Part shown: piece after piece, positions 763 to 60,683 of the stretch
How positions within the stretch are numbered: position 1 is the stretch's first letter
How the letters are laid out: each line of letters opens with the position of its first letter
IMG/VR virus record: IMGVR_UViG_3300030202_001345
Location: 858-64,857 of that record
Origin: a virus
Taxonomy: Duplodnaviria > Caudoviricetes
DNA length: 64,000 bases
Reading direction: 5' to 3' (one strand)
Notes under the pieces: generated by a model
Told to the model about the DNA's origin: nothing
What the model saw: only the letters and a program-made list of their open reading frames with translations
Databases searched by the model: none
Position numbers and translations under genes: made by a program

Positions 763-2481
763 ATGCAGACAACAGAGATCAATGGTTTTGTAATTGACGA
801 GTTCAATATACATAAGCTAGAAACTGGAAAAAAGCAGGGTACATGCCCTCTTTGTTCCCACGCTAGGAAGCCCAAGAATCAAAAGGCAAAATGTGCCTCT
901 TATGATTGGGAACGTGGTCTCGGTACTTGTCACAACTGTAACACATCATTTCAACTACATACATATCAAAGAAAAGGAGCTAGCGAAAGAGTTTACGCTA
1001 GACCTGATCAGCCAGATCCTGAATATCCGGAGCTAGCAGATGACAAAGTGTTGAAATGGTTTGAAACTAGAGGAATATCACCAGAGACCTTGCTTGACTG
1101 TCAAGTTACTCAAGGCTCTGAGTGGATGCCTCAGACCGGTAAAACCGAGAATACAATAAAGTTTCAATACTTTATGGGCGATCAACTTATTAATGTTAAA
1201 TACAGAGATGGTCGTAAGAATTTTAAATTATATAAAGGCGCTGAAAAAGTATTTTATAATATTAATAGTATTGTAGGATATGATAACTGTATTATAACAG
1301 AAGGCGAAATGGATGTATTAGCTTTTCACGAAGCTGGAGTTACAAACGTTGTATCGGTTCCTAATGGCGCAACACTTACTAATAATAATTTAGATTATTT
1401 AGATAATTGTATAGATTATTTTGAAGACAAAGAAAAAGTAATAATAGCGGTAGATAAAGATGAAGCCGGACAAATGCTACAGCAAGAATTAGTCCGTAGA
1501 CTAGGCGCTGAAGTTTGCTTTTTAGTTGACTTTGATGAGTGTAAAGACGCTAATGAATACCTACAGAAATATGGCAAAGAAAAATTACAAGAGTGTGTTA
1601 CCACAGCAAGACCGTACCCGCTTGAAAACGTCACAACGTTCAAAGATATCGAAAACGAAGTCACAGATTTCGTTAAACACGGTTTTAAACCTGGATTTCA
1701 AATTGGTCTTAAAAACTTTGATGATATTTTTTCAACGTACACCCGTCAGTTTATTACTGTTACTGGCATACCTAGTAGCGGTAAGTCTGATTTTGTTGAC
1801 CAAATGGTTGTAGGTTATAATCAAAACTATGGCTGGAAAACTGCTTTTGCATCTCCAGAAAATCAACCAACATATCTTCATGCTCATAAGCTTATGCGTA
1901 AAGTATGGGGCGATATGCCCGACGTTAATGACATAGGTAGCGCTAAATGGAAAGAGGTTGCTAACCATGTCAATGATAATTTTTATTTTATAGACATGGA
2001 TAAATACAGTTTAGAAGCAGTGCTTAGAAAAGGAGCAGAGCTTGTTAAACGTAAAGGTATTAAATGCCTTGTAATTGATCCTTACAATAAAGTAAGAGAT
2101 ACAAACGCAGCGTCAGACGATGTCAATAGATATACTATGGATTATTTGGCTAAAATAGAACAGTTTTGTAGAAAATATGATGTGTTAACTTTTATAGTAG
2201 CACACCCTACAAAAATGTATAAAGGCCAAGATGGCAAAATGGAAGAACCTAATATGTATAATATTAAAGGTGGTGGTGAATGGTATGATGCTAGTTATCA
2301 CGGGTTATTAGTACATAGAGATTATGAGGCTAAAAATACTAAAGTTAAGGTATTAAAAGTTAAATTTCAAAACCTTGGTGAAAACGGAGCTGAATGCTTC
2401 TTTACATGGGAGCCTAAGTCAGGTTCATTTGTACCACAAGTAAATACAGTATCAGATGACAGCGGCCTTCCGTGGGAATAA
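763..2481 (+). CDS. DNA primase-helicase (T7 gp4/Twinkle-like)
   Basis: N-terminal Zn ribbon CPLC..CHNC; TOPRIM motifs ITEGEMD and DKDEAG; SF4 helicase Walker A GIPSSGKS; LVIDPY; VAHP. Confidence 0.95.
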   Translation: MQTTEINGFVIDEFNIHKLETGKKQGTCPLCSHARKPKNQKAKCASYDWERGLGTCHNCNTSFQLHTYQRKGASERVYARPDQPDPEYPELADDKVLKWFETRGISPETLLDCQVTQGSEWMPQTGKTENTIKFQYFMGDQLINVKYRDGRKNFKLYKGAEKVFYNINSIVGYDNCIITEGEMDVLAFHEAGVTNVVSVPNGATLTNNNLDYLDNCIDYFEDKEKVIIAVDKDEAGQMLQQELVRRLGAEVCFLVDFDECKDANEYLQKYGKEKLQECVTTARPYPLENVTTFKDIENEVTDFVKHGFKPGFQIGLKNFDDIFSTYTRQFITVTGIPSSGKSDFVDQMVVGYNQNYGWKTAFASPENQPTYLHAHKLMRKVWGDMPDVNDIGSAKWKEVANHVNDNFYFIDMDKYSLEAVLRKGAELVKRKGIKCLVIDPYNKVRDTNAASDDVNRYTMDYLAKIEQFCRKYDVLTFIVAHPTKMYKGQDGKMEEPNMYNIKGGGEWYDASYHGLLVHRDYEAKNTKVKVLKVKFQNLGENGAECFFTWEPKSGSFVPQVNTVSDDSGLPWE

Positions 2482-2734
2482 ACAAAAAAGTACCATGGGT
2501 ACATATCAAAGAAGCAGTGAAGAAGATGAAGCTTTGTACTGGTGTATAGCTAACAACGTTTGTATATCTCCTAGACAAATTAAATGGGGTGAAGGCAAAT
2601 GGGTTTTAGATATTGAAACAGGTATATACCCTAACAGAAAATTATTAGGAACAAGTGAAGCTTTTGGTCCTGTAGAAATATGGCAAAAGCAATGTGAATA
2701 CGCTAAATATTATTATGACAAATACAAAAATTAA
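2456..2734 (+). CDS. Hypothetical protein
   Basis: ORF tightly packed in the replication operon; real start may be an internal ATG. Confidence 0.55.
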   Translation: MTAAFRGNKQKSTMGTYQRSSEEDEALYWCIANNVCISPRQIKWGEGKWVLDIETGIYPNRKLLGTSEAFGPVEIWQKQCEYAKYYYDKYKN

Positions 2735-3365
2735 TTTTAAAACAGCAAGTGAAGCTTTCGATTATTTTTATATTAAAATAAAAGATAAGGGTCAGGTTTT
2801 TCAAGACACTAAAGCTTTGTTTAATATTGGGTTTTATATACACAACCCTTCTGATAAACAGATAAAAGCAAGGTATAGAAAATGGAATAAAGATTATGCA
2901 GAAGCCGAATGGCAATGGTACTTATCAGGTGATCCTAACATTAAAAAGCTAGGCGAACTTTATGGTAGTATACCTCCTATATGGGAGCGTATGGCTAACA
3001 GTGATGGTAATGTAATGTCTAACTATGGTTGGCAATGGAATCGTAATGATCAAATACATTATGTCGTAGGTAAGTTAAGAGAAGATCCAGAAACTAGACA
3101 CGCGGCTATAAGTATATATGACGCCAAAGAATATGATCAATATAGAAACGACACACCGTGTACCTACGCGGTACAGTTTACAATACTAGACGGTATGTTA
3201 AACATGTCTGTCTATATGCGTTCTAATGATCTCTGGTACGGCTTCTGTAATGATCAATACCAATTTGCATCATTACAACAAATGGTTGCAGAAAGACTGG
3301 AAAGACCAGTTGGCTGGTATTACCACCACGCCCACAACCTACACTTATATAACAATAAATTATAA
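2715..3365 (+). CDS. Thymidylate synthase-fold enzyme, dCMP hydroxymethylase/methylase-like
   Basis: EWQWYLSG; catalytic DTPCT; MRSNDLWYGFCND, with Asp at the nucleotide-specificity position; HNLHLY. Confidence 0.85.
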   Translation: MTNTKINFKTASEAFDYFYIKIKDKGQVFQDTKALFNIGFYIHNPSDKQIKARYRKWNKDYAEAEWQWYLSGDPNIKKLGELYGSIPPIWERMANSDGNVMSNYGWQWNRNDQIHYVVGKLREDPETRHAAISIYDAKEYDQYRNDTPCTYAVQFTILDGMLNMSVYMRSNDLWYGFCNDQYQFASLQQMVAERLERPVGWYYHHAHNLHLYNNKL

Positions 3366-51376: not shown

Positions 51377-52063
51377 TTAGTTTAAATATGCTTTTCCTGA
51401 AAATGCAGCAGAAAAAGTCAGTGTTAATTCATTTTCGTTATTGTATGTTATTCCACCCTCTACAGTAGAGTTGGCACTATCTACGACAGTAACCGAAGGA
51501 AATTTTTCTAAATCATGAGTTATAACCCATGTCGATGCTGGTAATCCTTGTTCGTAAACAAACGTCTTATCACCACTACCGCTTTGTTCTGGTTCTTTAG
51601 CTATACTATAGTATTGCAAAAATTGCAAACCACCGTTACCACTTACAAACGTTAAGTTCATAAGGTAATTACCAGATACAGTCTCTAATATTAAAGAGTT
51701 AAAAGTAAAAACACCAAATTGTCCTAAGTTGTTTCTATTTTGTATAAATATTTCATCGCCTACCAACGACTGTAAATATGGTAAAGCGTTAGAGCTATTT
51801 TTCATTATTGGCGTTATCATTAACTCTGTTATGTTTTGAAACAAAGTATTGTTACCACCAAATGAAGGAAAATATATAGAACTTCTTTCAGGTATTCCCT
51901 CGCTATCTGAAGTTTTAAATTGCCAGCTTACATTAGAATCCTTTACAACACTACTAATAGCGTTGATAGAAAAATTCTTAGTCTGGCCTGTTTGTACATC
52001 AGTACCGATTATAATGTCTGAACCATCAGGTACGCCTATTTGGTACGATGAAATTTTTGCCAT
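51377..52063 (-). CDS. Tail fibre adaptor/structural protein
   Basis: MAKISSY N-terminus; WVITHDLEKFPSVTVVD..FSGKAYLN C-terminus. Confidence 0.6.
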   Translation of the reverse strand: MAKISSYQIGVPDGSDIIIGTDVQTGQTKNFSINAISSVVKDSNVSWQFKTSDSEGIPERSSIYFPSFGGNNTLFQNITELMITPIMKNSSNALPYLQSLVGDEIFIQNRNNLGQFGVFTFNSLILETVSGNYLMNLTFVSGNGGLQFLQYYSIAKEPEQSGSGDKTFVYEQGLPASTWVITHDLEKFPSVTVVDSANSTVEGGITYNNENELTLTFSAAFSGKAYLN

Positions 52064-52073
52064 GTTCTATTTT

Positions 52074-54074
52074 TTATACTGGGTCAACATCAAGAGTTCC
52101 GCTGTTGTTTACTGATACTATATATTCAGTTCCATCTGGAGACGTTAACACAAGTCCATTTCCTGCTTGTTCTATTCTTACATCTCCTTTTGTTACTTTT
52201 ATATCATTAGATGAGAGACCGTCAGCTGTTAATACAAGATTAGCGTCACTTACTATTAAATCCTTGCTATCATCTACAGTGTCTATTTTTAAATTGCTAG
52301 AGGTATCTTGATACACACTCCAGTTATAACCTCCGAGAGACGTAAGAGAATTAAATTTAATTTCATCAGTAATTAATTCACTTCGCTGCAAATCATTTCC
52401 TACTGTTACAGTAAGAGTTGCACCACCAACATCAAGTGATACTGAATCACCTGCGGTGTAGTCTGAGCCTGGGTCAACAACACTAAATGTATCAATACCT
52501 GAACCGCTAGTTATTTCATCTACTAATATAGTTAAACCAGATCCACTACCTGTAGACGCGGTTGTAGTATAAACATCACCTTCATTATATCCACTACCAG
52601 CATTTACTACTTGAAGCGCTATGTTTTCTGATTGTTGAATTCTAATAAAACCACCACTGTTATATAAACCTCCATATGGTATACCAGATTGCAACGCTAC
52701 TTCATCATCGTTAAAATCAAATGTTGGAACCGTAGGTAGTATTACTCTAGGTACTTGTCTTACAGCATTTTTAAAAACCCCGCCCTCTGTTATCATCAAC
52801 GCGTTTGCGATATCGCTATTATTACTTCCTGTGGCAACTACAAATTTTGTTCTACCTAATCCAGTCGGATTATTTTGAGACGGATATACGCTTGCATCGT
52901 TTCTATAACCTAAAGTCATACATTCAGTTGTGGCAGTTAAATCTCCACCAATATTAAAATTGTTTCGATGCGCTATATTATCGCCTCCTAAATTTGCTAT
53001 ATTATATCCAAAAGTAAATGAATTTGTTTCTGTATGTTTTAAATCGTTGTCATGTCCTACAACAAAGCTTAGTCCACCGCTTGGAGGAGCCGCGCTTCCA
53101 TCTTGAGTAGTAAGTGAGTTAGCTGAACCAATTATTATAGAGTTATTAAGACCAGCTGTACTAGCCCCAATATCATAACCCATTACATTGTTTAATCCAA
53201 TTACATGAGAGTTAGTGGAATATTTTAATACGTTACCAGATCCTACAACTGCTGAGTTGACGGATGCCTTTGTGGTGTTACCTCCACCAAAAGATACTGA
53301 TCTATCTGAATTATCAGTGATTTGATTGTTTTCACCTACGGTTAAACAATGATCAGATCCTGATATTATATCATTACTTCCTGCACCTATTATTGCTGAT
53401 GTTTCACTTACTACTGGATTAGCAGGGTTATTAGAAATTATTAATCCTTTTCTAAAAGAAACTACACCTTCAACGTCTAATCCAAAATTTGCATTAGCAG
53501 CTTTGTTTATACCTACGTGTTTACTGCTTGGGTCTATAGTTATTCCATTAGAATTTTCTATAATTTGAGAATCACCTATAACACCTTGACCACCTGCTGT
53601 CCATTTTACAATATTATTTGTAGTACCAGTTCCTGAAACAGTACCAGATGGTGCATCCGGCATAGTAAACGTTTCAATATTTACACCAGAAACATGACCG
53701 CTTGCATCTGTTGACACTGAATTGATTACATCAAAGTCATCACCAAACTGTAAGTCTGTTTGACCGCTTGTGTTTGTTCTTCCTACTACGCTGTGATTGA
53801 TTACTACGTTCTGACCTAGGTCTGGGTTAATTTCTGTGTTAATTAATAAACCACCGCTAAAATTAAGGGCTTGTGAGATTAAGTCTACGCTGCCCGTGGT
53901 CCCGCTGTTTGAAGAAATGTCTAATGTGTTAGCTGGTTGCTGCCCTTGAAAGTATGCAGAAAGCTTAGTTAACGTCACGGATTTTGTAGCGTTATTGTCT
54001 GAAATATCGCTTATTGGCATTAAGTCTCCTGCTGCCAAAGTTCCTATCTCAGGGTATGAATAAATTATTGCCAT
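52074..54074 (-). CDS. Tail fibre protein
   Basis: MAIIYSYP N-terminus; GxxN repeats; C-terminal LTSPDGT..VSVNNSG. Confidence 0.7.
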   Translation of the reverse strand: MAIIYSYPEIGTLAAGDLMPISDISDNNATKSVTLTKLSAYFQGQQPANTLDISSNSGTTGSVDLISQALNFSGGLLINTEINPDLGQNVVINHSVVGRTNTSGQTDLQFGDDFDVINSVSTDASGHVSGVNIETFTMPDAPSGTVSGTGTTNNIVKWTAGGQGVIGDSQIIENSNGITIDPSSKHVGINKAANANFGLDVEGVVSFRKGLIISNNPANPVVSETSAIIGAGSNDIISGSDHCLTVGENNQITDNSDRSVSFGGGNTTKASVNSAVVGSGNVLKYSTNSHVIGLNNVMGYDIGASTAGLNNSIIIGSANSLTTQDGSAAPPSGGLSFVVGHDNDLKHTETNSFTFGYNIANLGGDNIAHRNNFNIGGDLTATTECMTLGYRNDASVYPSQNNPTGLGRTKFVVATGSNNSDIANALMITEGGVFKNAVRQVPRVILPTVPTFDFNDDEVALQSGIPYGGLYNSGGFIRIQQSENIALQVVNAGSGYNEGDVYTTTASTGSGSGLTILVDEITSGSGIDTFSVVDPGSDYTAGDSVSLDVGGATLTVTVGNDLQRSELITDEIKFNSLTSLGGYNWSVYQDTSSNLKIDTVDDSKDLIVSDANLVLTADGLSSNDIKVTKGDVRIEQAGNGLVLTSPDGTEYIVSVNNSGTLDVDPV

Positions 54075-54121
54075 GTTTGTTTTTTTAGTTGTTATGTTTT
54101 ACATGTGCGTACCATAGTTAT

Positions 54122-54151
54122 ATATACTCACAGGTTTTGAAGCGAATTTAC
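54122..54151 (-). promoter_or_regulatory. Putative class-2 promoter GTAAAT-N14-GTGAG heading the late arm
   Basis: Upstream of the first late gene; matches the other copies. Confidence 0.5.
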
Positions 54152-54180
54152 ACTAATAATCGTATATTACAGACGTATAG

Positions 54181-54223
54181 TGACAAAAGCCTATTACTTA
54201 TATATACTATATAGCTACTGTCA
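54181..54223. promoter_or_regulatory. 43-bp operator-like element TGACA-N33-TGTCA, copy 1
   Basis: Inverted copy at 61625-61667 shares GCCTATTACT and TATACTAT. Confidence 0.6.
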
Positions 54224-54438
54224 TATAAAATTGTTATGTATAGAGAGGTATAGTGTAGCACCTCACCTTTTTATCTGTAATCCTTATTTAAAATTCGTTT
54301 TACTTTTGCGGGTTCGCCTTGTTTTCCACGTTTCGATGCGTATATACTCGTTTTATCGCGTATTTGCCCCCGCCTTTATGACTTTTCCTACGGGACTATG
54401 ACAATCTGTCACATGACATAATGACATACTAGTATATT

Positions 54439-54468
54439 ACAGACATATTACTACAATAAATGGATAAT
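54439..54468 (+). promoter_or_regulatory. Early promoter copy 1, ACAGACA-N15-TGGATAAT
   Basis: Seven copies with invariant 15-nt spacer. Confidence 0.75.
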
Positions 54469-54551
54469 ATATATGTAATCAATTAGATAATGAGAGTCAA
54501 AGCGGAATACATACTAACTAAAATAAATAAGTAAACAAAACTACACTCATC

Positions 54552-54581
54552 ACAGACAAAATATAACACTAATTGGATAAT
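54552..54581 (+). promoter_or_regulatory. Early promoter copy 2
   Basis: ACAGACA-N15-TGGATAAT. Confidence 0.8.
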
Positions 54582-54610
54582 AATATAAATACTAATAAAT
54601 AATAAATATC

Positions 54611-54841
54611 ATGAGTAAATTAAATTCTAAAAGATTCGTCGTAAGACAATCACTAATCGGTAAAAACCAAGTAATCAATGTTGAATTCAAAAGCGGAAAG
54701 ACTTTCACTTACAATCACGATAAAGTGTATGAGCTAATGAAAGATAACTTATCAAAGTTAAACTGCTGGGAAAAGTATAAGTCTTACACTTCAAGTACTT
54801 CAATTCCAAGAGTATTACAAGGTGAAGTAGAAGTATTGTAA
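54611..54841 (+). CDS. First early hypothetical protein
   Basis: 76 aa; A-rich leader; downstream of two promoters. Confidence 0.65.
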   Translation: MSKLNSKRFVVRQSLIGKNQVINVEFKSGKTFTYNHDKVYELMKDNLSKLNCWEKYKSYTSSTSIPRVLQGEVEVL

Positions 54842-54860
54842 CAAGTATTTCTACTAACTA

Positions 54861-54903
54861 AGTGGCGCGTTGAGCTGTGTAGCATCACCACTATAAATAA
54901 CGT
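54861..54903 (+). ncRNA. Putative H-type pseudoknot element
   Basis: AGTGG/CCACT stem; loop GCGTT can pair with downstream AACGT after ATAAAT. Confidence 0.3.
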
Positions 54904-54918
54904 TGAACAGAGCAATAT

Positions 54919-55022
54919 GGGTAACTACATGGACAGTAGCGTATCATACAATGGCTGCAAGCTGGCTTCGGTTGGCAGTGTAAGTTGTGTACGGCGTAGA
55001 GGTTCGAATCCTCTCTTATCCA
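54919..55022 (+). ncRNA. tRNA-like / tmRNA-TLD-like RNA 1
   Basis: Acceptor GGGTAAC/CTTATCC-A (G3-U70); T-arm AGAGG-TTCGAAT-CCTCT; long cUUCGg-capped hairpin in place of an anticodon arm. Confidence 0.6.
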
Positions 55023-55044
55023 CTAATAATAAATAAATATAACT

Positions 55045-55251
55045 ATGTCAAATTTCAAATTCAGAGGATTTATTCCTGCAGTAACTAAATACGTAAAATC
55101 AAAACCACTAGCAGAATTAGTGGCGGAAGTAATAGCTTTCGGAGTACTAATGCCATTAGCTGTTGGCGGAATAACTTTCTTCGTCTTTATGATGATAACA
55201 GGTCAAGTAGATTATTCAGCGATGGATATTAACTGTGGAATATGCTACTAA
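55045..55251 (+). CDS. Small membrane protein
   Basis: Long hydrophobic segment; C-terminal CGIC. Confidence 0.55.
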   Translation: MSNFKFRGFIPAVTKYVKSKPLAELVAEVIAFGVLMPLAVGGITFFVFMMITGQVDYSAMDINCGICY

Positions 55252-55358
55252 TGAGAAGTTATTACAGTAAACTACAACAGAGATTTATAGCTCGTGAAGA
55301 ATACTTTGACGAGCTACTCTTTGGAACTCTCAATGATGAGAACTATGACAAGCCAATC

Positions 55359-55388
55359 ACAAACAAATTCAGTAAAAAACTGGATAAT
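55359..55388 (+). promoter_or_regulatory. Early promoter copy 3
   Basis: ACAAACA-N15-TGGATAAT. Confidence 0.8.
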
Positions 55389-55547
55389 AATATAAACTAA
55401 TTAATAACTTTTAAAACCTAATAATCATGGGACATCAAAATACTTACTTACTAAAAATCTCTTTCAGAGTATACAAAAAACATTTTAACTCACTAACTCC
55501 TGAAGAAAAAAGTAATGTATGGGATATATACTATGACTTCTACTAAT

Positions 55548-55841
55548 ATGAGTGCAATAAAAACATTTACACACAGAGGCGTTGACTATGATTATCATGA
55601 GTGGACAACTTGGAACGGCAAACCTGCAAGTGGTTATACTATAACTAACCATCCAACGTTTGCAATAACTAGTCCACGAGTGCAACAACTGTCAACTCAA
55701 ACTAAAGAACAAGCTATCGCTAAGATAGATGATTACTTCGACAGAGAAGATCACTACAAAGAAATGGCTAAACTTCACGACGCTGGGTGTCAAGCGTATT
55801 ACGATTCTAAGACTAGATGGGATAATTTTACAGGCGATTAA
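55548..55841 (+). CDS. Early hypothetical protein
   Basis: Likely start MSAIKTF. Confidence 0.55.
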   Translation: MSAIKTFTHRGVDYDYHEWTTWNGKPASGYTITNHPTFAITSPRVQQLSTQTKEQAIAKIDDYFDREDHYKEMAKLHDAGCQAYYDSKTRWDNFTGD

Positions 55842-56080
55842 CATTAAATAATTAACTATGCAATTTATACTAACATGCCCTAACGGCAAAGTGATCGATA
55901 TGTCTCACTACATTTCTCAACAAATGGAAGGTGAGTTAACTAGACAAGATGTACTTAACAGAATAGAATTCTATAAATCAACTAATACAAAATAACTATG
56001 GAAGATTGGATAAATATGTACAAGACGGGTGAAATAACACTCGAAACTTTACTCGAACTACTTGGTGGTTACGTATAATC

Positions 56081-56110
56081 ACAGACAGAATAATAAATCT
56101 ATTGGATAAT
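56081..56110 (+). promoter_or_regulatory. Early promoter copy 4
   Basis: ACAGACA-N15-TGGATAAT. Confidence 0.8.
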
Positions 56111-56125
56111 AATATAAATTTAATT

Positions 56126-56314
56126 ATGCAAAACACATTCAAACAAGTTAACAAAACTACTATCAAACTAAATAATACTACCTACAAAGGTTACAACGTA
56201 GGCGATCTACCTCCTTCGTTCGGCTTTAAATACAAAGACGACAAACAAGGTAAATACCAATGGTTTAACTACAACGGTTTAACTTACATAGAAAAAACAT
56301 TATTACCATGGTAG
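56126..56314 (+). CDS. Early hypothetical protein
   Basis: ATG at 56126 just after the promoter. Confidence 0.55.
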   Translation: MQNTFKQVNKTTIKLNNTTYKGYNVGDLPPSFGFKYKDDKQGKYQWFNYNGLTYIEKTLLPW

Positions 56315-56559
56315 TTACTAATATGAAAGAATTATGTGCTTATGCAGATAATAAGCGCAAACAAGCAGCCAAAGAGCACAGGCTTAAAAACGCTCATGAA
56401 GGTTATTGTAGTGGACTTACCTCTGCCGAGTACAACCGAGTACGAATCAGTGGCAAGAAATCTTATGGAGCCAAGGCACGTAAGTTCACCCATAACCGTA
56501 TGTGGAAACATCAATCAAGATATTCAGTTAAACAATTAATAGAAATAGTAAAAAAATGA
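56308..56559 (+). CDS. Early hypothetical basic protein
   Basis: 83-aa ORF in an overlapping operon. Confidence 0.55.
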   Translation: MVVTNMKELCAYADNKRKQAAKEHRLKNAHEGYCSGLTSAEYNRVRISGKKSYGAKARKFTHNRMWKHQSRYSVKQLIEIVKK

Positions 56560-56822
56560 GCGATACAGTAACTAAATGGCATGAAATGCAAGATGAAAAC
56601 AAAGAAATAATAACAGCAGACGAGTCAGCAAAGTATATATTTTTACTAGATTTTAATGACGGTAAAGTATATAGATATGACATAAGCGTGTTATGTACAG
56701 ATGAAAACTGGTGGAATCCTGATACAGAGTCTTGTGAAGCGTTTTTATATGGAGCAGGTCACAAATTAGGTGACTGTGAATGGATGGTAACTAACAATAA
56801 AGGAATAGAATTTGGAAACTAA
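56556..56822 (+). CDS. Early hypothetical acidic protein
   Basis: 88-aa ORF with ATGA overlap. Confidence 0.55.
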   Translation: MSDTVTKWHEMQDENKEIITADESAKYIFLLDFNDGKVYRYDISVLCTDENWWNPDTESCEAFLYGAGHKLGDCEWMVTNNKGIEFGN

Positions 56823-56988
56823 TGAGTAAAATGAAAGAACTAGATTTGATTGCACAAGGTGTAGCAGATCACATGAAAGAAATCATTGAAGACAGTGTTG
56901 ATTGGCAACTAGCTGACCAACCACTTGACGGTGATGACTATCAAGAAATGAAAGAGTATGTAATAAATGTTGCACTTAATAAATTATT

Positions 56989-57018
56989 ACAAACAAAATA
57001 AATTATCTTTTGGATAAT
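56989..57018 (+). promoter_or_regulatory. Early promoter copy 5
   Basis: ACAAACA-N15-TGGATAAT. Confidence 0.8.
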
Positions 57019-57035
57019 AATATAAACAAAAAAAT

Positions 57036-57224
57036 ATGTATTGTAAATGCGGCACAGAAGTGCACCCTGTAAGATTAAAGCTAGGCTACAAAACTTGTAT
57101 GCCTTGCTCAACAACTCAAACGTACTCTTATGTACCTATCATCGAGCACAAAACAGGTAATACAATACAAATAGTTAGCCAAGAAGTAAGTGCATCAGTG
57201 CACAAAGCTTGGCGTAGAAAATAG
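57036..57224 (+). CDS. C4 zinc-finger protein (DksA/TraR-finger-like)
   Basis: CKCGTEVHPVRLKLGYKTCMPC resembles CxxCG.xI..xRL....xxCxxC. Confidence 0.55.
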   Translation: MYCKCGTEVHPVRLKLGYKTCMPCSTTQTYSYVPIIEHKTGNTIQIVSQEVSASVHKAWRRK

Positions 57225-57244
57225 CGCTAATTCGATACGGCGCG

Positions 57245-57426
57245 AGGCGGCGGCATACTGGTCACGTTAGTTGAAGGGTAAGGCGGATAAAGCTTATAGG
57301 CGATTACCGGAGCGATCACTAAGTGAAGCTCGACCGTGGTGCGTTATAAGTAGCTATAACTTCAGCAAAACAGAAAGAGCGGATAAATGACAATACTAGT
57401 TAACTACCAGTCCGTAACTGCTGCCT
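57245..57426 (+). ncRNA. Putative ~180-nt structured ncRNA of unknown class
   Basis: GC-rich intergenic; closing stem AGGCGGCGG/CTGCTGCCT; ACTGGT/ACCAGT; GTTGAAG/CTTCAGC; internal hairpins GAGC..TCAC-TAA-GTGA..GCTC and GTTATA/TATAAC. Confidence 0.6.
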
Positions 57427-57429
57427 TAT

Positions 57430-57528
57430 GGGCGTGAAATGGTTAGAAGCTAAGAACAGTAACGCACGGCGAAAGCTATGAGCAAACAACTGTGACGCTT
57501 AACGCAGGTTCGATTCCTGCCACGTCCA
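57430..57528 (+). ncRNA. tmRNA-TLD-like RNA 2 (mini-tmRNA without mRNA domain)
   Basis: Acceptor GGGCGTG/CACGTCC-A (G3-U70, A73); unstemmed D-loop AAATGGTTAG; AAGC/GCTT and ACAGT/ACTGT stems with a GAAA loop; T-arm GCAGG-TTCGATT-CCTGC. Confidence 0.7.
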
Positions 57529-57548
57529 CTAAATTAAATATAACAACT

Positions 57549-57929
57549 ATGACTAAATATGAATTAGAACAAAGGTATCTCGAAGCAGACTTTGTTTGGA
57601 ATATGCTAACTAAGTATGGCATACAAGAAATTACTACAATGCGACAAGCTAAAAATGATACAAGAGCTTTTAGAATGCCTACAGGTCAAATAATAGCGTC
57701 ATACAAATCAGGTATGGTACGTAGATGTGACAGTAGCGATAGAATATGGCAACTAAATCCTAAGTACAAAACTAAAACTAGATGGGTGTTTCTAACAGAA
57801 AATGGCTTAGAAACTAAAGAATATGAAACGTGGGCTAGAGCCGCTATATATTCTAGACTAGCTAGGTTAAACTTTATACTACAATACTACTTAAGAAATT
57901 ACAAACAAAATAATAAATCTATTGGATAA
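57549..57929 (+). CDS. Early hypothetical protein
   Basis: Real start at ATG 57549; the upstream extension in the ORF track overlaps the ncRNA. Confidence 0.6.
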   Translation: MTKYELEQRYLEADFVWNMLTKYGIQEITTMRQAKNDTRAFRMPTGQIIASYKSGMVRRCDSSDRIWQLNPKYKTKTRWVFLTENGLETKEYETWARAAIYSRLARLNFILQYYLRNYKQNNKSIG

Positions 57930-57930
57930 T
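57901..57930 (+). promoter_or_regulatory. Early promoter copy 6
   Basis: ACAAACA-N15-TGGATAAT; ATG only 5 nt downstream. Confidence 0.8.
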
Positions 57931-57935
57931 AATAT

Positions 57936-58172
57936 ATGAAAAAACCAAAAACCGTCTACGACAACTTATTGCCCGACGTTAAAAAAGCTTTGCAAACTAG
58001 TGCTAGAAAGTACAGTGCTGCAAAAAGATTAAAATATACATTAATGTCAAAGTTAATGTGGTATGAACTAACCATCAACGATATTAGAGATTTGATTAGC
58101 TACAGCGAACTAAATAGCTGGGAATTAGAAGCTTACTCTTTTATGTACGGTGATAAAATTATGAAAAAATGA
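57936..58172 (+). CDS. Early hypothetical protein
   Basis: 78-aa ORF. Confidence 0.55.
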   Translation: MKKPKTVYDNLLPDVKKALQTSARKYSAAKRLKYTLMSKLMWYELTINDIRDLISYSELNSWELEAYSFMYGDKIMKK

Positions 58173-58612
58173 ATAAAAAAATTATTACTGACGATATAAT
58201 CGACGAAAGATTGGAAGCGCGTGGTGTAGAAATTGATCTTGACCATGATAAAGCTTTAGAAAAAATACAAGATCATTATGAGTTTAGACTAGTAAGTGAT
58301 TGGAATGGCACACCTGACTACAGTATATACACTGAAACCACAGCAGATGGTTACGAAGTATGGGTTGCTACAAGCGGTGATGGTAGAAATGTATGTATAA
58401 ATGAGGATGTACACTACTATGAAAACGACTTATCAGAGAAACTAGTTGAAGCTATGACTGATTACAACGAGTTAATCTATGTAGATGATCTTGAATCTTA
58501 TTATGTTCAGGACGCGGTTACAGAAGCATATGAGTCATACTATAACGACATGAAGCAAGAAGTTGAAAACGAATTAATAGAAGAAGGATATGAACACGAA
58601 AAGTCAAATTAA
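58169..58612 (+). CDS. Highly acidic early protein
   Basis: 147 aa, very D/E-rich. Confidence 0.6.
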   Translation: MNKKIITDDIIDERLEARGVEIDLDHDKALEKIQDHYEFRLVSDWNGTPDYSIYTETTADGYEVWVATSGDGRNVCINEDVHYYENDLSEKLVEAMTDYNELIYVDDLESYYVQDAVTEAYESYYNDMKQEVENELIEEGYEHEKSN

Positions 58613-58853
58613 GCCTAAGTGGTTTAAAGGTAGTTGGTACACCGAGGGTGATACAGTTACAAATCCCTTTAGTGGCGAGTCATATCCACTAACAGGGCCA
58701 GAGTTAAGTATATACGACTTTATACAAGGTATGAACTTTGTGTTCGCCGCAACACCAAGAAATGTAAATGAACAACAGTTAAAAGATTTTCATAAAGCTT
58801 TAAACTGGTTCAGAAAACATAATATAAAAGCATACATGGTCTTATTAGACTAA
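58590..58853 (+). CDS. Hypothetical protein
   Basis: VTNPFSGE..LSIYDFI..AYMVLLD. Confidence 0.6.
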   Translation: MNTKSQIKPKWFKGSWYTEGDTVTNPFSGESYPLTGPELSIYDFIQGMNFVFAATPRNVNEQQLKDFHKALNWFRKHNIKAYMVLLD

Positions 58854-58858
58854 AAAAT

Positions 58859-58932
58859 TGCGCTGTGGAGCAGTTGGTCAGCTCGCTAGGCTCATAACCT
58901 AGAGGTCGCAGGTTCGAATCCTGCTGGCGCAC
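58859..58932 (+). tRNA. tRNA-Met (CAT), initiator-like body
   Basis: Cloverleaf: TGCGCTG/TGGCGCA, D-stem GAGC/GCTC, CTAGG-CTCATAA-CCTAG, GCAGG-TTCGAAT-CCTGC; no encoded CCA. Confidence 0.9.
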
Positions 58933-58934
58933 CT

Positions 58935-59135
58935 ATGAAATTTATAAAATATACAATAGTATGGATAAGTCAAAATCTAGCTATCCCATTTTGGGTAGTT
59001 GGACATATACACTTGTCCATACACTCGTTTCATGATCTATACGAGCTTCTTGCTAGTATAGGCATGAACTTAATAGTATTAACCGGCTTTATTATAGATT
59101 ATAAAGCACAAAACACAAATAAAAATGGCAACTAG
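58935..59135 (+). CDS. Small two-TM membrane protein
   Basis: Hydrophobic with His cluster GHIHLSIH. Confidence 0.55.
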   Translation: MKFIKYTIVWISQNLAIPFWVVGHIHLSIHSFHDLYELLASIGMNLIVLTGFIIDYKAQNTNKNGN

Positions 59136-59583
59136 AAACTTAACAATGGTCGTAGATAGACGACACGCTGAGGAATCAGACCTTGGTTTTGCAGATAATC
59201 CCTCTGTATTTAATGACAAAAGCTATGTAAATATGTATTTACATCACGATGGTTATCCTGAATGGCAAGGTGTACAAATAGCAAATTGGCTACAAACTAA
59301 TCCTAGTCAAGATGGTAGCAGATTAGCCGCTAAATTAGTTCATGATATGTACTATGACAGCTGCTACTTATACTCTGATCTATTACACATAGACCATCAA
59401 TATACTTATATTATATGGTCAGGCAAAAAAGACAGATGGGTAAGCTGTTGGGACAACTACAATAGCTATAACGTGTTTGTTTTAAAACCAGAAAAAATTA
59501 TATCTAAATATATGGACGATATGGAATACACTGATTTTGCTAACGGAAATACAAGGTATGATAAAATTACAGACATAATATAA
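59125..59583 (+). CDS. Conserved phage hypothetical protein (MATR..YxHxDGYP type)
   Basis: MATRN...MYLHHDGYPEWQG. Confidence 0.6.
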   Translation: MATRNLTMVVDRRHAEESDLGFADNPSVFNDKSYVNMYLHHDGYPEWQGVQIANWLQTNPSQDGSRLAAKLVHDMYYDSCYLYSDLLHIDHQYTYIIWSGKKDRWVSCWDNYNSYNVFVLKPEKIISKYMDDMEYTDFANGNTRYDKITDII

Positions 59584-59598
59584 ATGAATTTGGATAAT
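59569..59598 (+). promoter_or_regulatory. Early promoter copy 7
   Basis: ACAGACA-N15-TGGATAAT. Confidence 0.75.
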
Positions 59599-59607
59599 AA
59601 TAATGAA

Positions 59608-59856
59608 ATGTTTGATTTAAGCAAGTTTGATGATTATATAGATCAGTTAACTGAGTTAGTATTTGCTCGTATTATAGATAAATACGGTGACATTTACCCA
59701 TTAAACTTTACAACAAATCAAGAAGAAATATTAGTAAGTGAATTAGCTAGACTACAAACACAGCTAGCTATGCTAGAAGATAGACAAGAGTACGAAAAAT
59801 GTGCTATTGTTAAAATGAGAATAACTAAAATTGAATTAAAATTAAAAAACCTATGA
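59608..59856 (+). CDS. Protein with UVR-like C-terminal hairpin
   Basis: EDRQEYEKCAIVK resembles the UvrB/C motif; start moved downstream of the promoter. Confidence 0.5.
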   Translation: MFDLSKFDDYIDQLTELVFARIIDKYGDIYPLNFTTNQEEILVSELARLQTQLAMLEDRQEYEKCAIVKMRITKIELKLKNL

Positions 59857-60683
59857 TAAAACCTATGCTTGCACACAAGTATGATGACAGTAGAGTTGAC
59901 TGGTCTAAACCTGTGTACATACAACCAAAGCTAGACGGTGTTCGATGTGTGTTTACTAAAGACGGCGCATACTCACGTACTAGTAAAGAATTTAAAAATC
60001 TAGCTCATATTGAAGCAGAATTAATACCGTTTTTCAAAGAACGACCAGATTTTGTACTTGATGGTGAGTTATATAATCACAACTTAAAAAATGATTTCGA
60101 AAAGATTATATCATTAGTTCGTAAGCAAAAACCTACAGCAGATGATAGACTAGAAGCTAGAAGATTAGTACAGTTTCATATTTACGATTATATAGATGGC
60201 CGCTACAATAGCTACAAAACTCGTATGCAAAGCCTAGCAACATCAGATCTATATAGTCCAAGTATACAATACGTGCCTGCAAAGCTAGTTGATAGTTATA
60301 ATTATGCTAGAGAATTACATCAAGAGTTTCTTGATCAAGGTTACGAAGGTTCTATCATAAGACTAGATGGCTTATACAAGCACGGTAGGTCTTACGATCT
60401 AATGAAATTTAAAGACTTCAGCGATACTGAAGCAACCATCATAGGTTATGAATTAGGTAAGGGTAAGAGACAAGGCACGCTCGGAAAGTTCATTATGTTA
60501 GATGACGAAGGTATACAGTTCGGTTGTCCGCCGGGCAAAGGTTATACCTACAAGGATTTAGCTAATATGTTACTGAAAGTTAATGACTACATAGGTCAGC
60601 GTGCTACCTTTACTTATTTTCAACGAACTAAAGCAGGTTCATACAGACACCCGCTATTCAAATGTATTAGAAATTATGAGTAA
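59853..60683 (+). CDS. ATP-dependent DNA ligase
   Basis: KPMLA, QPKLDGVR, LDGELY, YEGSIIR, LMKFK, YRHP. Confidence 0.95.
   Translation: MIKPMLAHKYDDSRVDWSKPVYIQPKLDGVRCVFTKDGAYSRTSKEFKNLAHIEAELIPFFKERPDFVLDGELYNHNLKNDFEKIISLVRKQKPTADDRLEARRLVQFHIYDYIDGRYNSYKTRMQSLATSDLYSPSIQYVPAKLVDSYNYARELHQEFLDQGYEGSIIRLDGLYKHGRSYDLMKFKDFSDTEATIIGYELGKGKRQGTLGKFIMLDDEGIQFGCPPGKGYTYKDLANMLLKVNDYIGQRATFTYFQRTKAGSYRHPLFKCIRNYE

What the first reader, a model, noticed from the sequence alone, without database searches (positions are those of the whole stretch)
54919..55022. Second, sequence-divergent TLD-like RNA with the same architecture
Seen: acceptor GGGTAAC/CTTATCC-A, again with G1-C72, G2-C71, G3-U70 and A73 (but a C7-C66 mismatch). 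It has T-arm AGAGG-TTCGAAT-CCTCT and a long hairpin (CGTA/TACG, CATACAA/TTGTGT, CTGC/GCAG, cUUCGg loop) instead of an anticodon arm. Both RNAs are ~100 nt, end in CCACTAA, lie under early promoters, and follow another structured element. Inference: two unrelated sequences with the same fold and Ala identity point to a selected RNA family, not chance decay.
Basis: partly seen in the sequence, partly recalled or inferred. Interest (0 to 1): 0.8.

Follow-up and report, generated by a model that had tools for sequence, protein, structure and literature searches.

The report
Anticodon-less tRNA mimic in phage operon
A marine flavobacterial phage carries a real, conserved 104-base RNA shaped like a tRNA but with a long capped hairpin where the anticodon should be, one of many such tRNA look-alikes that sit between this phage group's early genes and probably tell host tRNA-trimming enzymes where to cut.

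Summary
Window 54919-55022 (+) folds into a 6-bp acceptor stem, a D-like arm, a long arm capped by UUCG, and a canonical T arm, followed by A73 and CUAA. One-sequence folding is not significant and no Rfam family or ARAGORN claims it. Comparison settles it. There are 41 records (25 distinct sequences) of the same RNA in viral and metagenome contigs. In the 17 distinct 104-nt forms, 99.2% of cells are paired and 9 of 36 pairs show compensatory changes. It is not coding.

The alanine reading is only partly supported. G3·U70/A73 is invariant within this subfamily. But in the same slot after the upstream gene, 57 of 71 related loci carry a T-arm element and only 4 have alanine-type acceptors. Many of the others are 41-nt forms with no arm at all.

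The phages' true tRNAs share the same CUA(A/U) trailer (13 of 13), and one relative has a hammerhead core in this slot.

Best reading: a tRNA mimic cut out by RNase P and RNase Z, punctuating the early message. Charging with alanine or SmpB binding stays open.

This scan has noted such mimics before, on other DNA.

The parts
54919..55022 (+). The tRNA-like RNA, G1 to discriminator A73 (104 nt)
   Evidence: Sequence. 41 homologous records, 25 distinct. Structure counts.
54919..54924 (+). Acceptor 5' strand GGGUAA. It pairs with 55016-55021 (UUAUCC), with G3·U70 at 54921/55018.
   Evidence: 6 of 6 pairs formed in 17 of 17 and 25 of 25 distinct sequences, and they never vary. The 5' strand was fixed by the search pattern, except for position 3.
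54925..54939 (+). D-like arm: CUAC stem, AUGGACA loop (GG as in tRNA D loops), GUAG
   Evidence: RNAalifold consensus. It is invariant, so covariation does not test it.
54940..54996 (+). Long arm in place of the anticodon arm, with internal loops, capped by cUUCGg (54966-54971)
   Evidence: Compensatory changes at 22/78, 28/74, 29/73, 31/71, 44/57 and 46/55 (RNA numbering). Replaced by a shorter hairpin in the 77-79-nt forms.
54998..55014 (+). T arm: AGAGG, UUCGAAU, CCUCU
   Evidence: 3 of 5 pairs show compensatory changes and 100% of cells are paired. At least 6 stem variants occur in 25 distinct sequences.
55023..55026 (+). Conserved 3' trailer CUAA
   Evidence: 25 of 25 distinct subfamily sequences. 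The same C-U-A-(A/U) follows 13 of 13 ARAGORN tRNAs of these phages.
54861..54907 (+). Upstream hairpin motif: stem AGUGG (54861-54865) / CCACU (54888-54892), loop beginning GCGUUGA, then UAUAAAUAACGUUGAA
   Evidence: 14 distinct copies upstream of tRNA-like elements of several subfamilies, and the stem covaries. Function unknown.
54611..54841 (+). Upstream 76-codon ORF ('up76'), used as the anchor of the slot
   Evidence: ORF list, alignment A1, and 429 relatives in viral contigs. No PHROG match.
55045..55251 (+). Downstream 68-codon ORF, with its start 22 nt after A73
   Evidence: The same gene family follows 14 of 25 distinct subfamily members, and at least four other genes follow the rest.
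54553..54581 (+). Nearest upstream copy of the repeated promoter-like motif CAGACA-N17-GATAAT
   Evidence: 8 matches against 0.43 expected, 7 of them on + in 54440-59598. Promoter activity is not shown.
57430..57528 (+). The other tRNA-like RNA of the window (TLD-only tmRNA-like), for comparison
   Evidence: RF00023 34.3 bits, ends only, below the gathering score of 47.

Best explanation
54919-55022 is a non-coding, tRNA-shaped RNA embedded in an early polycistronic message, between a 76-codon and a 68-codon gene. It keeps what tRNA-end-processing enzymes read:
- an acceptor stem stacked on a T arm,
- a UUCGAAU T loop,
- a GG-containing D loop,
- a purine discriminator.
It has no anticodon loop.

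It is an elaborated member of a large family of anticodon-less tRNA mimics. These occupy the same intergenic slot, and other slots, in the early region of a clade of uncultured marine flavobacterial podophages.

Inferred mechanism:
1. Host RNase P cuts before G1.
2. RNase Z, or the host's equivalent 3' pathway, cuts after A73, as for the phage's own tRNA-Met.
3. The early message is thereby divided, and a stable small RNA is released.

What is shown: the RNA is real, structured, conserved, non-coding and modular, and its family is defined by tRNA-processing features rather than by acceptor identity.

What is inferred: the cleavages themselves. A second role for the released RNA of this subfamily, whose acceptor is sequence-invariant and alanine-like, is also only inferred.
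For: (1) Structure under selection. In 17 distinct 104-nt sequences, 99.2% of cells are paired and 9 of 36 pairs are compensatory, against 34.5-45.4% paired when partners are slid. There are 25 distinct sequences in 41 records.

(2) Family-wide, only processing-type features are kept.
- 153 non-tRNA T-arm elements lie on the gene strand of 81 sources, against 22 T-arm motif hits on the other strand. T loops are UUCGAUU, UUCGAAU or UUCGACU in 142 of the 166 + strand hits (13 of which are true tRNAs).
- 130 of the 153 have a 6-bp 5' partner followed by a GG-containing D loop. A control with the reversed 3' strand gives 14 of 153.
- Acceptor sequences differ widely.
- In 19 minimal 41-45-nt forms, all 12 pairs show compensatory changes, and pair 7:66 is unpaired in 15 of 19, as here. 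These 19 were picked by a pairing filter.

(3) The same 3' trailer as true tRNAs. C-U-A-(A/U) follows the discriminator in 13 of 13 ARAGORN tRNAs of these phages. CUAA follows 98 of the 166 + strand T-arm hits and 25 of 25 distinct subfamily members.

(4) Slot behaviour. 57 of 71 loci have an element within 400 nt after up76. In one locus without it, L202, the slot holds a hammerhead core with stems I-III and GUC (RAGATH-1 hammerhead, 28.8 bits, E 0.0052, below gathering 56.3). That fits the slot being an RNA-cleavage site.

(5) It is a module, not tied to one gene. At least 5 different genes lie downstream in 25 distinct members.

(6) Precedent. Plant-mitochondrial t-elements, which are non-canonical tRNA-like folds with a GGTTCRANYCC T arm, direct RNase P and RNase Z cuts at mRNA ends (PMC1920247, passages read).
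Against: - No cut has been seen. The RNA-library contigs laid did not cover 54856-55007, and contigs cannot show ends anyway.
- A minimal 41-nt form would suffice as a cut signal. The extra 57-nt arm with an invariant UUCG cap suggests more than punctuation. So does the invariant 3' acceptor strand: none of four structure-neutral changes was seen in 25 distinct sequences, while T stems change freely.
- The hammerhead match is below Rfam's gathering score. It is 1 locus in this slot, with 2 core matches in 81 sources.
- A covariance model of the minimal forms does not span this RNA. It gives only a local T-arm match of 11.8 bits, E 3.1. Membership of the family therefore rests on synteny and shared parts.
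- Two more distant relatives, one a cultured phage and one a complete metagenome-derived genome, gave no match to that model.
Confidence: 0.55

Rival explanations
1. A working alanine-acceptor / tmRNA-TLD analogue. After processing and CCA addition, host AlaRS charges the RNA and/or it binds SmpB. It would then interfere with, or replace, trans-translation, acting as a second, divergent partner of the TLD-only RNA at 57430-57528.
For: G1-C72, G2-C71, G3·U70 and A73 are all present and invariant: G3 in 41 of 41 records, although the pattern left that position free, and the 3' strand CUUAUCC in 40 of 41. The bacterial Ala set is given as A73, G2-C71, G3·U70, G4-C69 and G20 (PMC9976931, table passage read). 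That acceptor minihelices are charged with alanine rests on my recall of Francklyn & Schimmel 1989, whose title I saw only in that paper's reference list. [quoted passage not shown] It co-occurs with the tmRNA-like copy in the window and in L128, L129 and G002.
Against: RF00023 does not match it even at E <= 10. G4-C69 and G20 are not met: it has U4-A69, and A follows the GG. It has a D-like stem, which tmRNA TLDs lack. Of the 57 loci whose slot holds a T-arm element, 48 have a Watson-Crick 3:70 pair and varied 1:72 and 73, so the slot's function does not need alanine identity. The acceptor stack is 6+5 bp with an unpaired 7:66.
Confidence: 0.2
2. An uncleaved cis element of the message: a 5' or 3' structural cap that protects neighbouring mRNA from exonucleases, or that tunes translation of the next gene.
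For: The next ORF starts within 30 nt of the discriminator for 88 of 137 distinct elements, against 15.6% for random positions. Here the distance is 22 nt. In some relatives the element lies directly before the next promoter-like motif, i.e. at the end of a unit.
Against: The downstream gene differs among subfamily members, with at least 5 kinds. A good tRNA mimic is expected to be cut by RNase P (established knowledge; not tested here). Intergenic spacers are short throughout this genome, so closeness to a start codon is expected for any intergenic element.
Confidence: 0.1
3. A decoy for host defences or toxins that act on tRNA acceptor ends or on the T arm, soaking them up early in infection.
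For: It lies in the early region. There are several copies per phage, with varied acceptors but a constant elbow and T loop. That toxins modifying tRNA 3' ends exist is my recall, not from any call.
Against: There is no direct evidence. No paper linking phage tRNA-like decoys to acceptor-targeting defence turned up (0 papers). No defence or anti-defence gene was recognised next to it.
Confidence: 0.07
4. A short protein gene (39 codons, 54917-55036), or a decayed tRNA gene without function.
For: An ATG-started ORF of 39 codons overlaps the RNA. Rfam's tRNA model gives a weak 15.1 bits.
Against: The ATG is absent in 10 of 25 distinct homologues. Length variants of 77, 78, 79 and 104 nt break any frame. 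Substitutions are compensatory in stems. Decay would not keep 25 distinct sequences pairing at 99%.
Confidence: 0.02

Closest known systems
t-elements of plant mitochondria and the tRNA punctuation model (Forner et al. 2007, PMC1920247; passages read)
   Same: Non-canonical tRNA-like folds with a conserved GGTTCRANYCC T arm, lying between or next to coding regions. There they are shown or argued to direct RNase P and RNase Z cuts, and the excised element can be stable and receive non-encoded C/CC/CCA.
   Different: This is a bacteriophage of Flavobacteriia, not an organelle. It has no anticodon loop at all (UUCG-capped long arm), a 6-bp acceptor with an unpaired 7:66, and a conserved CUAA trailer. 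No cleavage has been shown here.
TLD-only tmRNA of mycobacteriophage DS6A (Hudson et al. 2014, PMC4131195; passages read)
   Same: A phage-encoded RNA that keeps a tRNA-like top half with an alanine-type acceptor (G3·U70, A73) and has no tag-coding part.
   Different: The Rfam tmRNA model does not match this RNA, whereas it matches the window's other copy (34.3 bits) and a relative's copy (64.1 bits). This RNA has a D-like stem, and its relatives in the same slot lack alanine identity.
Canonical tRNA (RF00005), e.g. the phage's own tRNA-Met at 58859-58933
   Same: Acceptor stem, D-loop GG, T arm with UUCGAAU, discriminator, and the same CUA(A/U) trailer.
   Different: No anticodon stem-loop. 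ARAGORN makes no call, and Rfam's tRNA model scores 15.1 bits against a gathering score of 29. There are no U8/N9 linker nucleotides in the consensus fold.
Anticodon-less tRNA mimics noted earlier by this scan in other phages (AI notes)
   Same: Acceptor plus T arm and no anticodon, between phage early genes, with a ribozyme in the equivalent slot of a relative.
   Different: Those notes describe mostly minimal forms in crAss-like, freshwater and peat phages. This one has a full cloverleaf-like layout with a long arm and an invariant alanine-type acceptor. The notes are not independent evidence.

Membership tests
tmRNA (Rfam RF00023), including TLD-only forms | Match to the tmRNA covariance model (5' and 3' TLD halves) | tested here: not met
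   No RF00023 match in 54700-55200 at E <= 10, nor in the whole genome, where only 57430-57531 is found.
tmRNA (Rfam RF00023), including TLD-only forms | Alanine acceptor identity: G3·U70 and A73 | tested here: met
   Read in the sequence. Invariant in 41 of 41 records.
tmRNA (Rfam RF00023), including TLD-only forms | mRNA-like domain with resume codon and tag reading frame | tested here: not met
   The 57 nt between the D-like arm and the T arm form one hairpin capped by UUCG. That leaves no room for a tag frame.
tmRNA (Rfam RF00023), including TLD-only forms | Binding of SmpB to the TLD elbow | not testable with these tools
   No RNA-protein prediction tool was available.
tRNA (RF00005) | Cloverleaf with an anticodon stem and 7-nt anticodon loop, scoring above the model threshold | tested here: not met
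   ARAGORN makes no call. RF00005 scores 15.1 bits against 29, and only over 54974-55022. The arm ends in a UUCG tetraloop.
Bacterial tRNA-Ala identity set (A73, G2-C71, G3·U70, G4-C69, G20; PMC9976931) | All listed determinants present | tested here: inconclusive
   A73, G2-C71 and G3·U70 are present. Position 4:69 is U-A, and the base after the D-loop GG is A. G3·U70 is the major determinant (recalled). Charging was not tested.
t-element-like / anticodon-less tRNA mimics (processing signals) | Conserved T arm of the GGTTCRANYCC type plus a pairing acceptor stem | tested here: met
   GGTTCGAATCC at 55001-55011. T stem and acceptor are 100% paired in 17 distinct sequences.
t-element-like / anticodon-less tRNA mimics (processing signals) | Lies within a transcript, between coding regions, on the coding strand | tested here: met
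   It lies between ORFs 54611-54841 and 55045-55251. 166 of 188 T-arm motifs in 81 sources are on the gene strand.
t-element-like / anticodon-less tRNA mimics (processing signals) | RNA ends coincide with the element's ends (RNase P / RNase Z cuts), with non-encoded CCA | not testable with these tools
   Only assembled contigs of RNA libraries were on offer, and none covered the element.
Minimal 41-45-nt mimic family of the same phage clade (model R1) | Full-length match to the covariance model built from 19 minimal forms | tested here: not met
   Only a local T-arm match, 11.8 bits, E 3.1. The insertion after the D loop, about 60 nt longer than in the minimal forms, is not bridged. Kinship rests on synteny, the shared unpaired 7:66, the AUGG D loop and the CUAA trailer.

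The most novel reading that the evidence does not exclude
These phages encode two unrelated lineages of anticodon-less alanine-acceptor RNAs: this cloverleaf-like one and the TLD-only tmRNA-like one. Host tRNA enzymes would excise them, add CCA and charge them with alanine, after which they act outside normal decoding. Possible actions are blocking or short-circuiting trans-translation through SmpB and EF-Tu, or feeding alanine to a non-ribosomal transfer. The plain 41-nt relatives would be the uncharged, cut-signal-only ancestors.
Probability: 0.17. Interest if true: 0.85.

Novelty: new variant of a known kind. Interest (0 to 1): 0.55.

Why it matters
If the cuts are real, a whole clade of abundant marine flavobacterial phages divides its early messages with tRNA mimics. 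That would extend tRNA punctuation and t-elements from organelles to bacteriophages. It would also explain many unannotated 'GGTTCGA' islands in phage genomes that tRNA finders skip.

This particular RNA adds a sharper question. Its acceptor is frozen in an alanine-like form while the rest of the molecule evolves by compensatory change. It therefore offers a natural test of whether a phage uses a charged, anticodon-less RNA.

In practice, the 39-codon ORF over it should not be annotated as a gene.

Tried and rejected
- Single-sequence thermodynamics gave no support (z -0.79; copy 1 z -1.37).
- An exact search for the 3' 27 nt in viral contigs found nothing.
- The search for related loci with the 666-aa neighbour found no relative.
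- megablast of 52000-60000 against cultured phages hit only the tRNA-Met. tblastn of up76 against cultured phages found nothing.
- Model R1, built from the minimal forms, neither spans this RNA nor matches two more distant relatives, NC_055853.1 and MW202828.1. That call had no positive control, so it shows nothing about absence.
- Rfam at gathering thresholds found no ribozyme in 16 loci lacking or differing in the slot element. The hammerhead in L202 was seen by eye and scores below gathering.
- The promoter/terminator scan was uninformative: 30 sites found against 22.4 expected.
- Mixing the 77-79-nt and 104-nt forms in one alignment broke the long-arm consensus, so the two classes were treated apart.
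- RNA libraries. Six runs held small shares. The four that were laid are contigs of relatives (mostly 90-95% alike), with no cover of 54856-55007. One 692-nt contig of X18 joins a relative's element to the downstream gene, but a contig shows neither a single transcript nor its absence. No conclusion was drawn.
- An attP remnant was rejected: no integrase was seen among the annotated genes, several elements occur per phage, and the full 5' strand is conserved.
- A two-piece or permuted tmRNA was rejected: RF04321 scores 15.5 bits against 47.
- Literature searches listed no paper describing such elements in phages. Only listings, and the passages named elsewhere in this report, were read. Mao et al. 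2009 was not found or read; it is cited only through PMC4131195. Supplements were not opened.

Full report
**What the window is.** The window is nearly all of a 64,857-base IMG/VR virus record rated 100% complete. Its genes include:
- primase-helicase, thymidylate synthase, MazG, both ribonucleotide reductase subunits and a chaperonin;
- DNA ligase, a sigma factor and an Erf-like protein.

Its large terminase is closest to podophages of Flavobacterium (68 records), Cellulophaga (15), Tenacibaculum (2) and Maribacter (1). The best identity is 62%, to an uncultured record.

The finding lies in an arm of small + strand genes. That arm carries seven + strand copies of a promoter-like motif, CAGACA-N17-GATAAT (8 matches in the window, 0.43 expected by chance).

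**The observation.** The sequence reads as described:
- GGGUAA (54919-54924) pairs with UUAUCC (55016-55021), giving G1-C72, G2-C71 and G3·U70.
- C7 and C66 do not pair.
- The T arm is AGAGG-UUCGAAU-CCUCU (54998-55014), followed by A73 (55022) and CUAA.

ARAGORN calls only a tRNA-Met at 58859-58933. Rfam at gathering thresholds finds only that tRNA. At relaxed thresholds the tRNA model gives 15.1 bits (gathering 29) over the 3' half, and no tmRNA match appears. A whole-genome search with RF00023 at E <= 10 finds only the other RNA, at 57430-57531 (34.3 bits, gathering 47).

The single-sequence fold is no better than shuffles (z = -0.79). On its own the sequence proves little.

**Homologues.** BLAST in five related virus records found a full-length 79%-identical copy and a shorter copy. 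An exact search with the first 21 nt found 6 viral contigs. The same pattern with position 3 left free found 35 metagenome stretches. With the window, 41 records were parsed, giving 25 distinct sequences: 17 of 104 nt and 8 of 77-79 nt with a shorter arm.

In the 17 long forms the consensus structure has 36 pairs, and 99.2% of 612 cells pair. Nine pairs show changes on both sides: three in the T stem and six in the long arm. Sliding the partners by 1-3 columns drops pairing to 34.5-45.4% (the first six sequences are). The structure was derived from these sequences, which flatters the comparison, but the compensatory changes are plain in the alignment.

It also reveals a D-like arm, CUAC-AUGGACA-GUAG, which never varies and so remains untested.

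**Not coding.** The 39-codon ORF at 54917-55036 loses its ATG in 10 of 25 distinct homologues. The 77-, 78- and 79-nt forms break any frame.

**A module.** Upstream of G1 the majority letter averages 53% over 30 positions. Downstream, CUAA is 100% conserved and the rest averages about 60%. The first 21 nt were fixed by the search, so their invariance says nothing. The next gene downstream belongs to at least five different families among the 25 distinct members, and the gene upstream is usually, though not always, the up76 family.

**The wider family, which changes the interpretation.** The upstream 76-codon gene has 429 relatives in viral contigs (alignment A1). In the 80 loci kept, plus the window:
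- A simple T-arm motif (5 paired bases, TTCRANN loop) occurs 166 times on the gene strand and 22 times on the other.
- 13 of the 166 are ARAGORN tRNAs (12 Met, 1 Gln); the other 153 are not.
- 130 of the 153 have a 6-bp 5' partner followed by a GG-containing loop. A reversed-strand control gives 14 of 153.
- Lengths cluster at 41 nt (acceptor, a 9-nt AUGGUUAAU-type loop, T arm, acceptor, discriminator). They extend to 115 nt (one parse of 174) through insertions after that loop.
- Nineteen minimal forms show compensatory changes in all 12 pairs, and 7:66 is unpaired in 15 of 19, as in this RNA. These 19 were chosen by a pairing filter, so the percentage paired is partly built in.

In the slot directly after up76, 57 of 71 loci with enough sequence carry such an element:
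- Only 4 have G1-C72/G2-C71/G3·U70/A73, all of this subfamily and counting the window.
- 48 have a Watson-Crick pair at 3:70, with acceptors such as AGUCAC, UGUCAC, AGACAU, UGAAGU and GGAGUG.
- 5 gave no 5' partner by my parse.

The other 14 loci have no element.

Alanine identity is thus a trait of this subfamily, and of the separate GGGCGUG/GGGGGUG lineage of the window's other RNA. It is not a trait of the family.

**Pointers to mechanism.**
- The true tRNAs of these phages are followed by the same C-U-A-(A/U) as the mimics: 13 of 13 tRNAs, CUAA after 98 of the 166 + strand T-arm hits, and 25 of 25 distinct subfamily members. The two kinds therefore appear to share 3'-end handling.
- In locus L202, which lacks a T-arm element, the slot holds CUGAUGAG-stem II-CGAAAC-stem III-GUC flanked by a pairing stem I. 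Rfam aligns this end to end with the RAGATH-1 hammerhead at 28.8 bits, E 0.0052, below the gathering score of 56.3. A second such core lies elsewhere in L158, making 2 strict core matches in 81 sources. A self-cleaving ribozyme in place of a tRNA mimic is what one expects if the slot's job is to be cut.
- The features conserved family-wide are those read by RNase P, RNase Z and the CCA-adding enzyme: the acceptor/T-arm stack, the T loop and the D-loop GG. This rests on established knowledge of those enzymes, not on a test here. The closest described parallel is the plant-mitochondrial t-element (PMC1920247, passages read).

**What punctuation does not explain.** Within the subfamily, the acceptor 3' strand is CUUAUCC in 40 of 41 records. 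Four single changes would keep pairing (C72U, C71U, U70C, A69G). T stems, by contrast, show at least six variants, including G·U pairs. G3 was left free in the search and is G in 41 of 41 records. The long arm keeps its UUCG cap.

This fits recognition of the acceptor sequence itself. The bacterial alanine set is given as A73, G2-C71, G3·U70, G4-C69 and G20 (PMC9976931), and this RNA has the first three. Hudson et al. note that a TLD-only molecule, chargeable or not, strongly inhibits tmRNA, perhaps by titrating SmpB (PMC4131195). I therefore keep a charged or SmpB-binding role as the main rival (0.2) and as the novel case. Nothing here tests charging or binding.

**Expression data.** Six RNA libraries held small shares of the 4.5-kb stretch. 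The four that were laid are assembled contigs of relatives and do not cover the element, so no conclusion is drawn.

**Verdict.**
- The interpretation 'selected RNA family' is supported. 'Shared Ala identity defines it' is not.
- The RNA is best described as an elaborated, anticodon-less tRNA mimic of a large phage family. It is most likely an RNase P / RNase Z processing signal whose excised product may have a further role, linked to alanine or to SmpB.
- The same general kind has been noted by this scan in at least 19 other genomes (AI notes, not independent evidence). My five literature searches listed no paper describing it in phages.

Noticed in passing
L202:4209-4279 (+) and L158:~2522-2590 (+): Hammerhead ribozyme cores (CUGAUGAG ... 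CGAAAC ... GUC with stems I-III) lie in intergenic positions of related phages' early regions. The L202 one sits 17 nt after the up76 gene, in the slot that holds tRNA mimics elsewhere. RAGATH-1 hammerhead 28.8 bits, below gathering.
   Followed up: partly
window 54861-54907 and 13 related loci: A conserved hairpin motif lies just upstream of tRNA mimics of several subfamilies. It has a covarying 5-bp stem, a loop beginning (C)GCGUU, then (U/C)UAAA-N3-5-GUUGAA. Function unknown; it resembles neither the repeated promoter-like motif nor any Rfam family.
   Followed up: partly
L150, L157, L159, L168, L177, L182, L189, L203 etc.: A second recurrent upstream motif, GGUGACU(A/C)(U/A)CCGAACC ... AAACUGG(A/U)(U/G)A(G), forms a hairpin before many tRNA mimics in related phages. 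It is absent near 54919 in the window.
   Followed up: no
L014, L019, L022, L082, L083, L101 (and L080): Unrelated viral contigs carry 104-146-nt (204 in L080) tRNA-like RNAs with almost the same acceptor (GGAUAAG or GGGUAAG / CUUAUCC-A-CUAA), a class-II-type D arm (GCGGAAUUGGUAGACGC) and a long irregular insert instead of an anticodon arm. Position 3 toggles between A (A-U) and G (G·U).
   Followed up: no
L033:1276-1378 and 3186-3292: Another 59-kb viral contig has two ~77-81-nt alanine-type tRNA-like RNAs (GGGGGUG/CACCUCC-A and GGGUGUG/CACAUCC-A) 1.9 kb apart, both followed by CUAA.
   Followed up: no
L010 and L087; L167:7552-7632: Relatives of the window's other RNA vary greatly in size with the same acceptor. 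There are 243-nt forms (GGGCGUG ... CACGUCC-A) that may keep a middle domain, and an 81-nt form that scores 64.1 bits to Rfam tmRNA, above gathering.
   Followed up: no
window 57024-57225 and 57288-57439: In RNA-library contigs of relatives, the G+C-rich stretch just upstream of the 57430 RNA has by far the highest word depth (up to 137 in X16 and 125 in X18), while neighbouring genes have little. Contig depths are a poor measure, so this is a lead only.
   Followed up: no
window 54440-59598: Seven + strand copies of CA(G/A)ACA-N15-UGGAUAAU (0.43 expected) divide the early arm into units. In some relatives this motif starts directly after a mimic's discriminator (trailer 'CAAA', 9 of 166).
   Followed up: partly
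L210:~1851-1900 (-): In one contig the subfamily RNA is preceded, 4 nt upstream, by another T-arm element (GUGGG-UUCGAAA-CCCGC-UCAGUCA-A). Mimics can therefore stand in tandem, like tRNA gene clusters.
   Followed up: no
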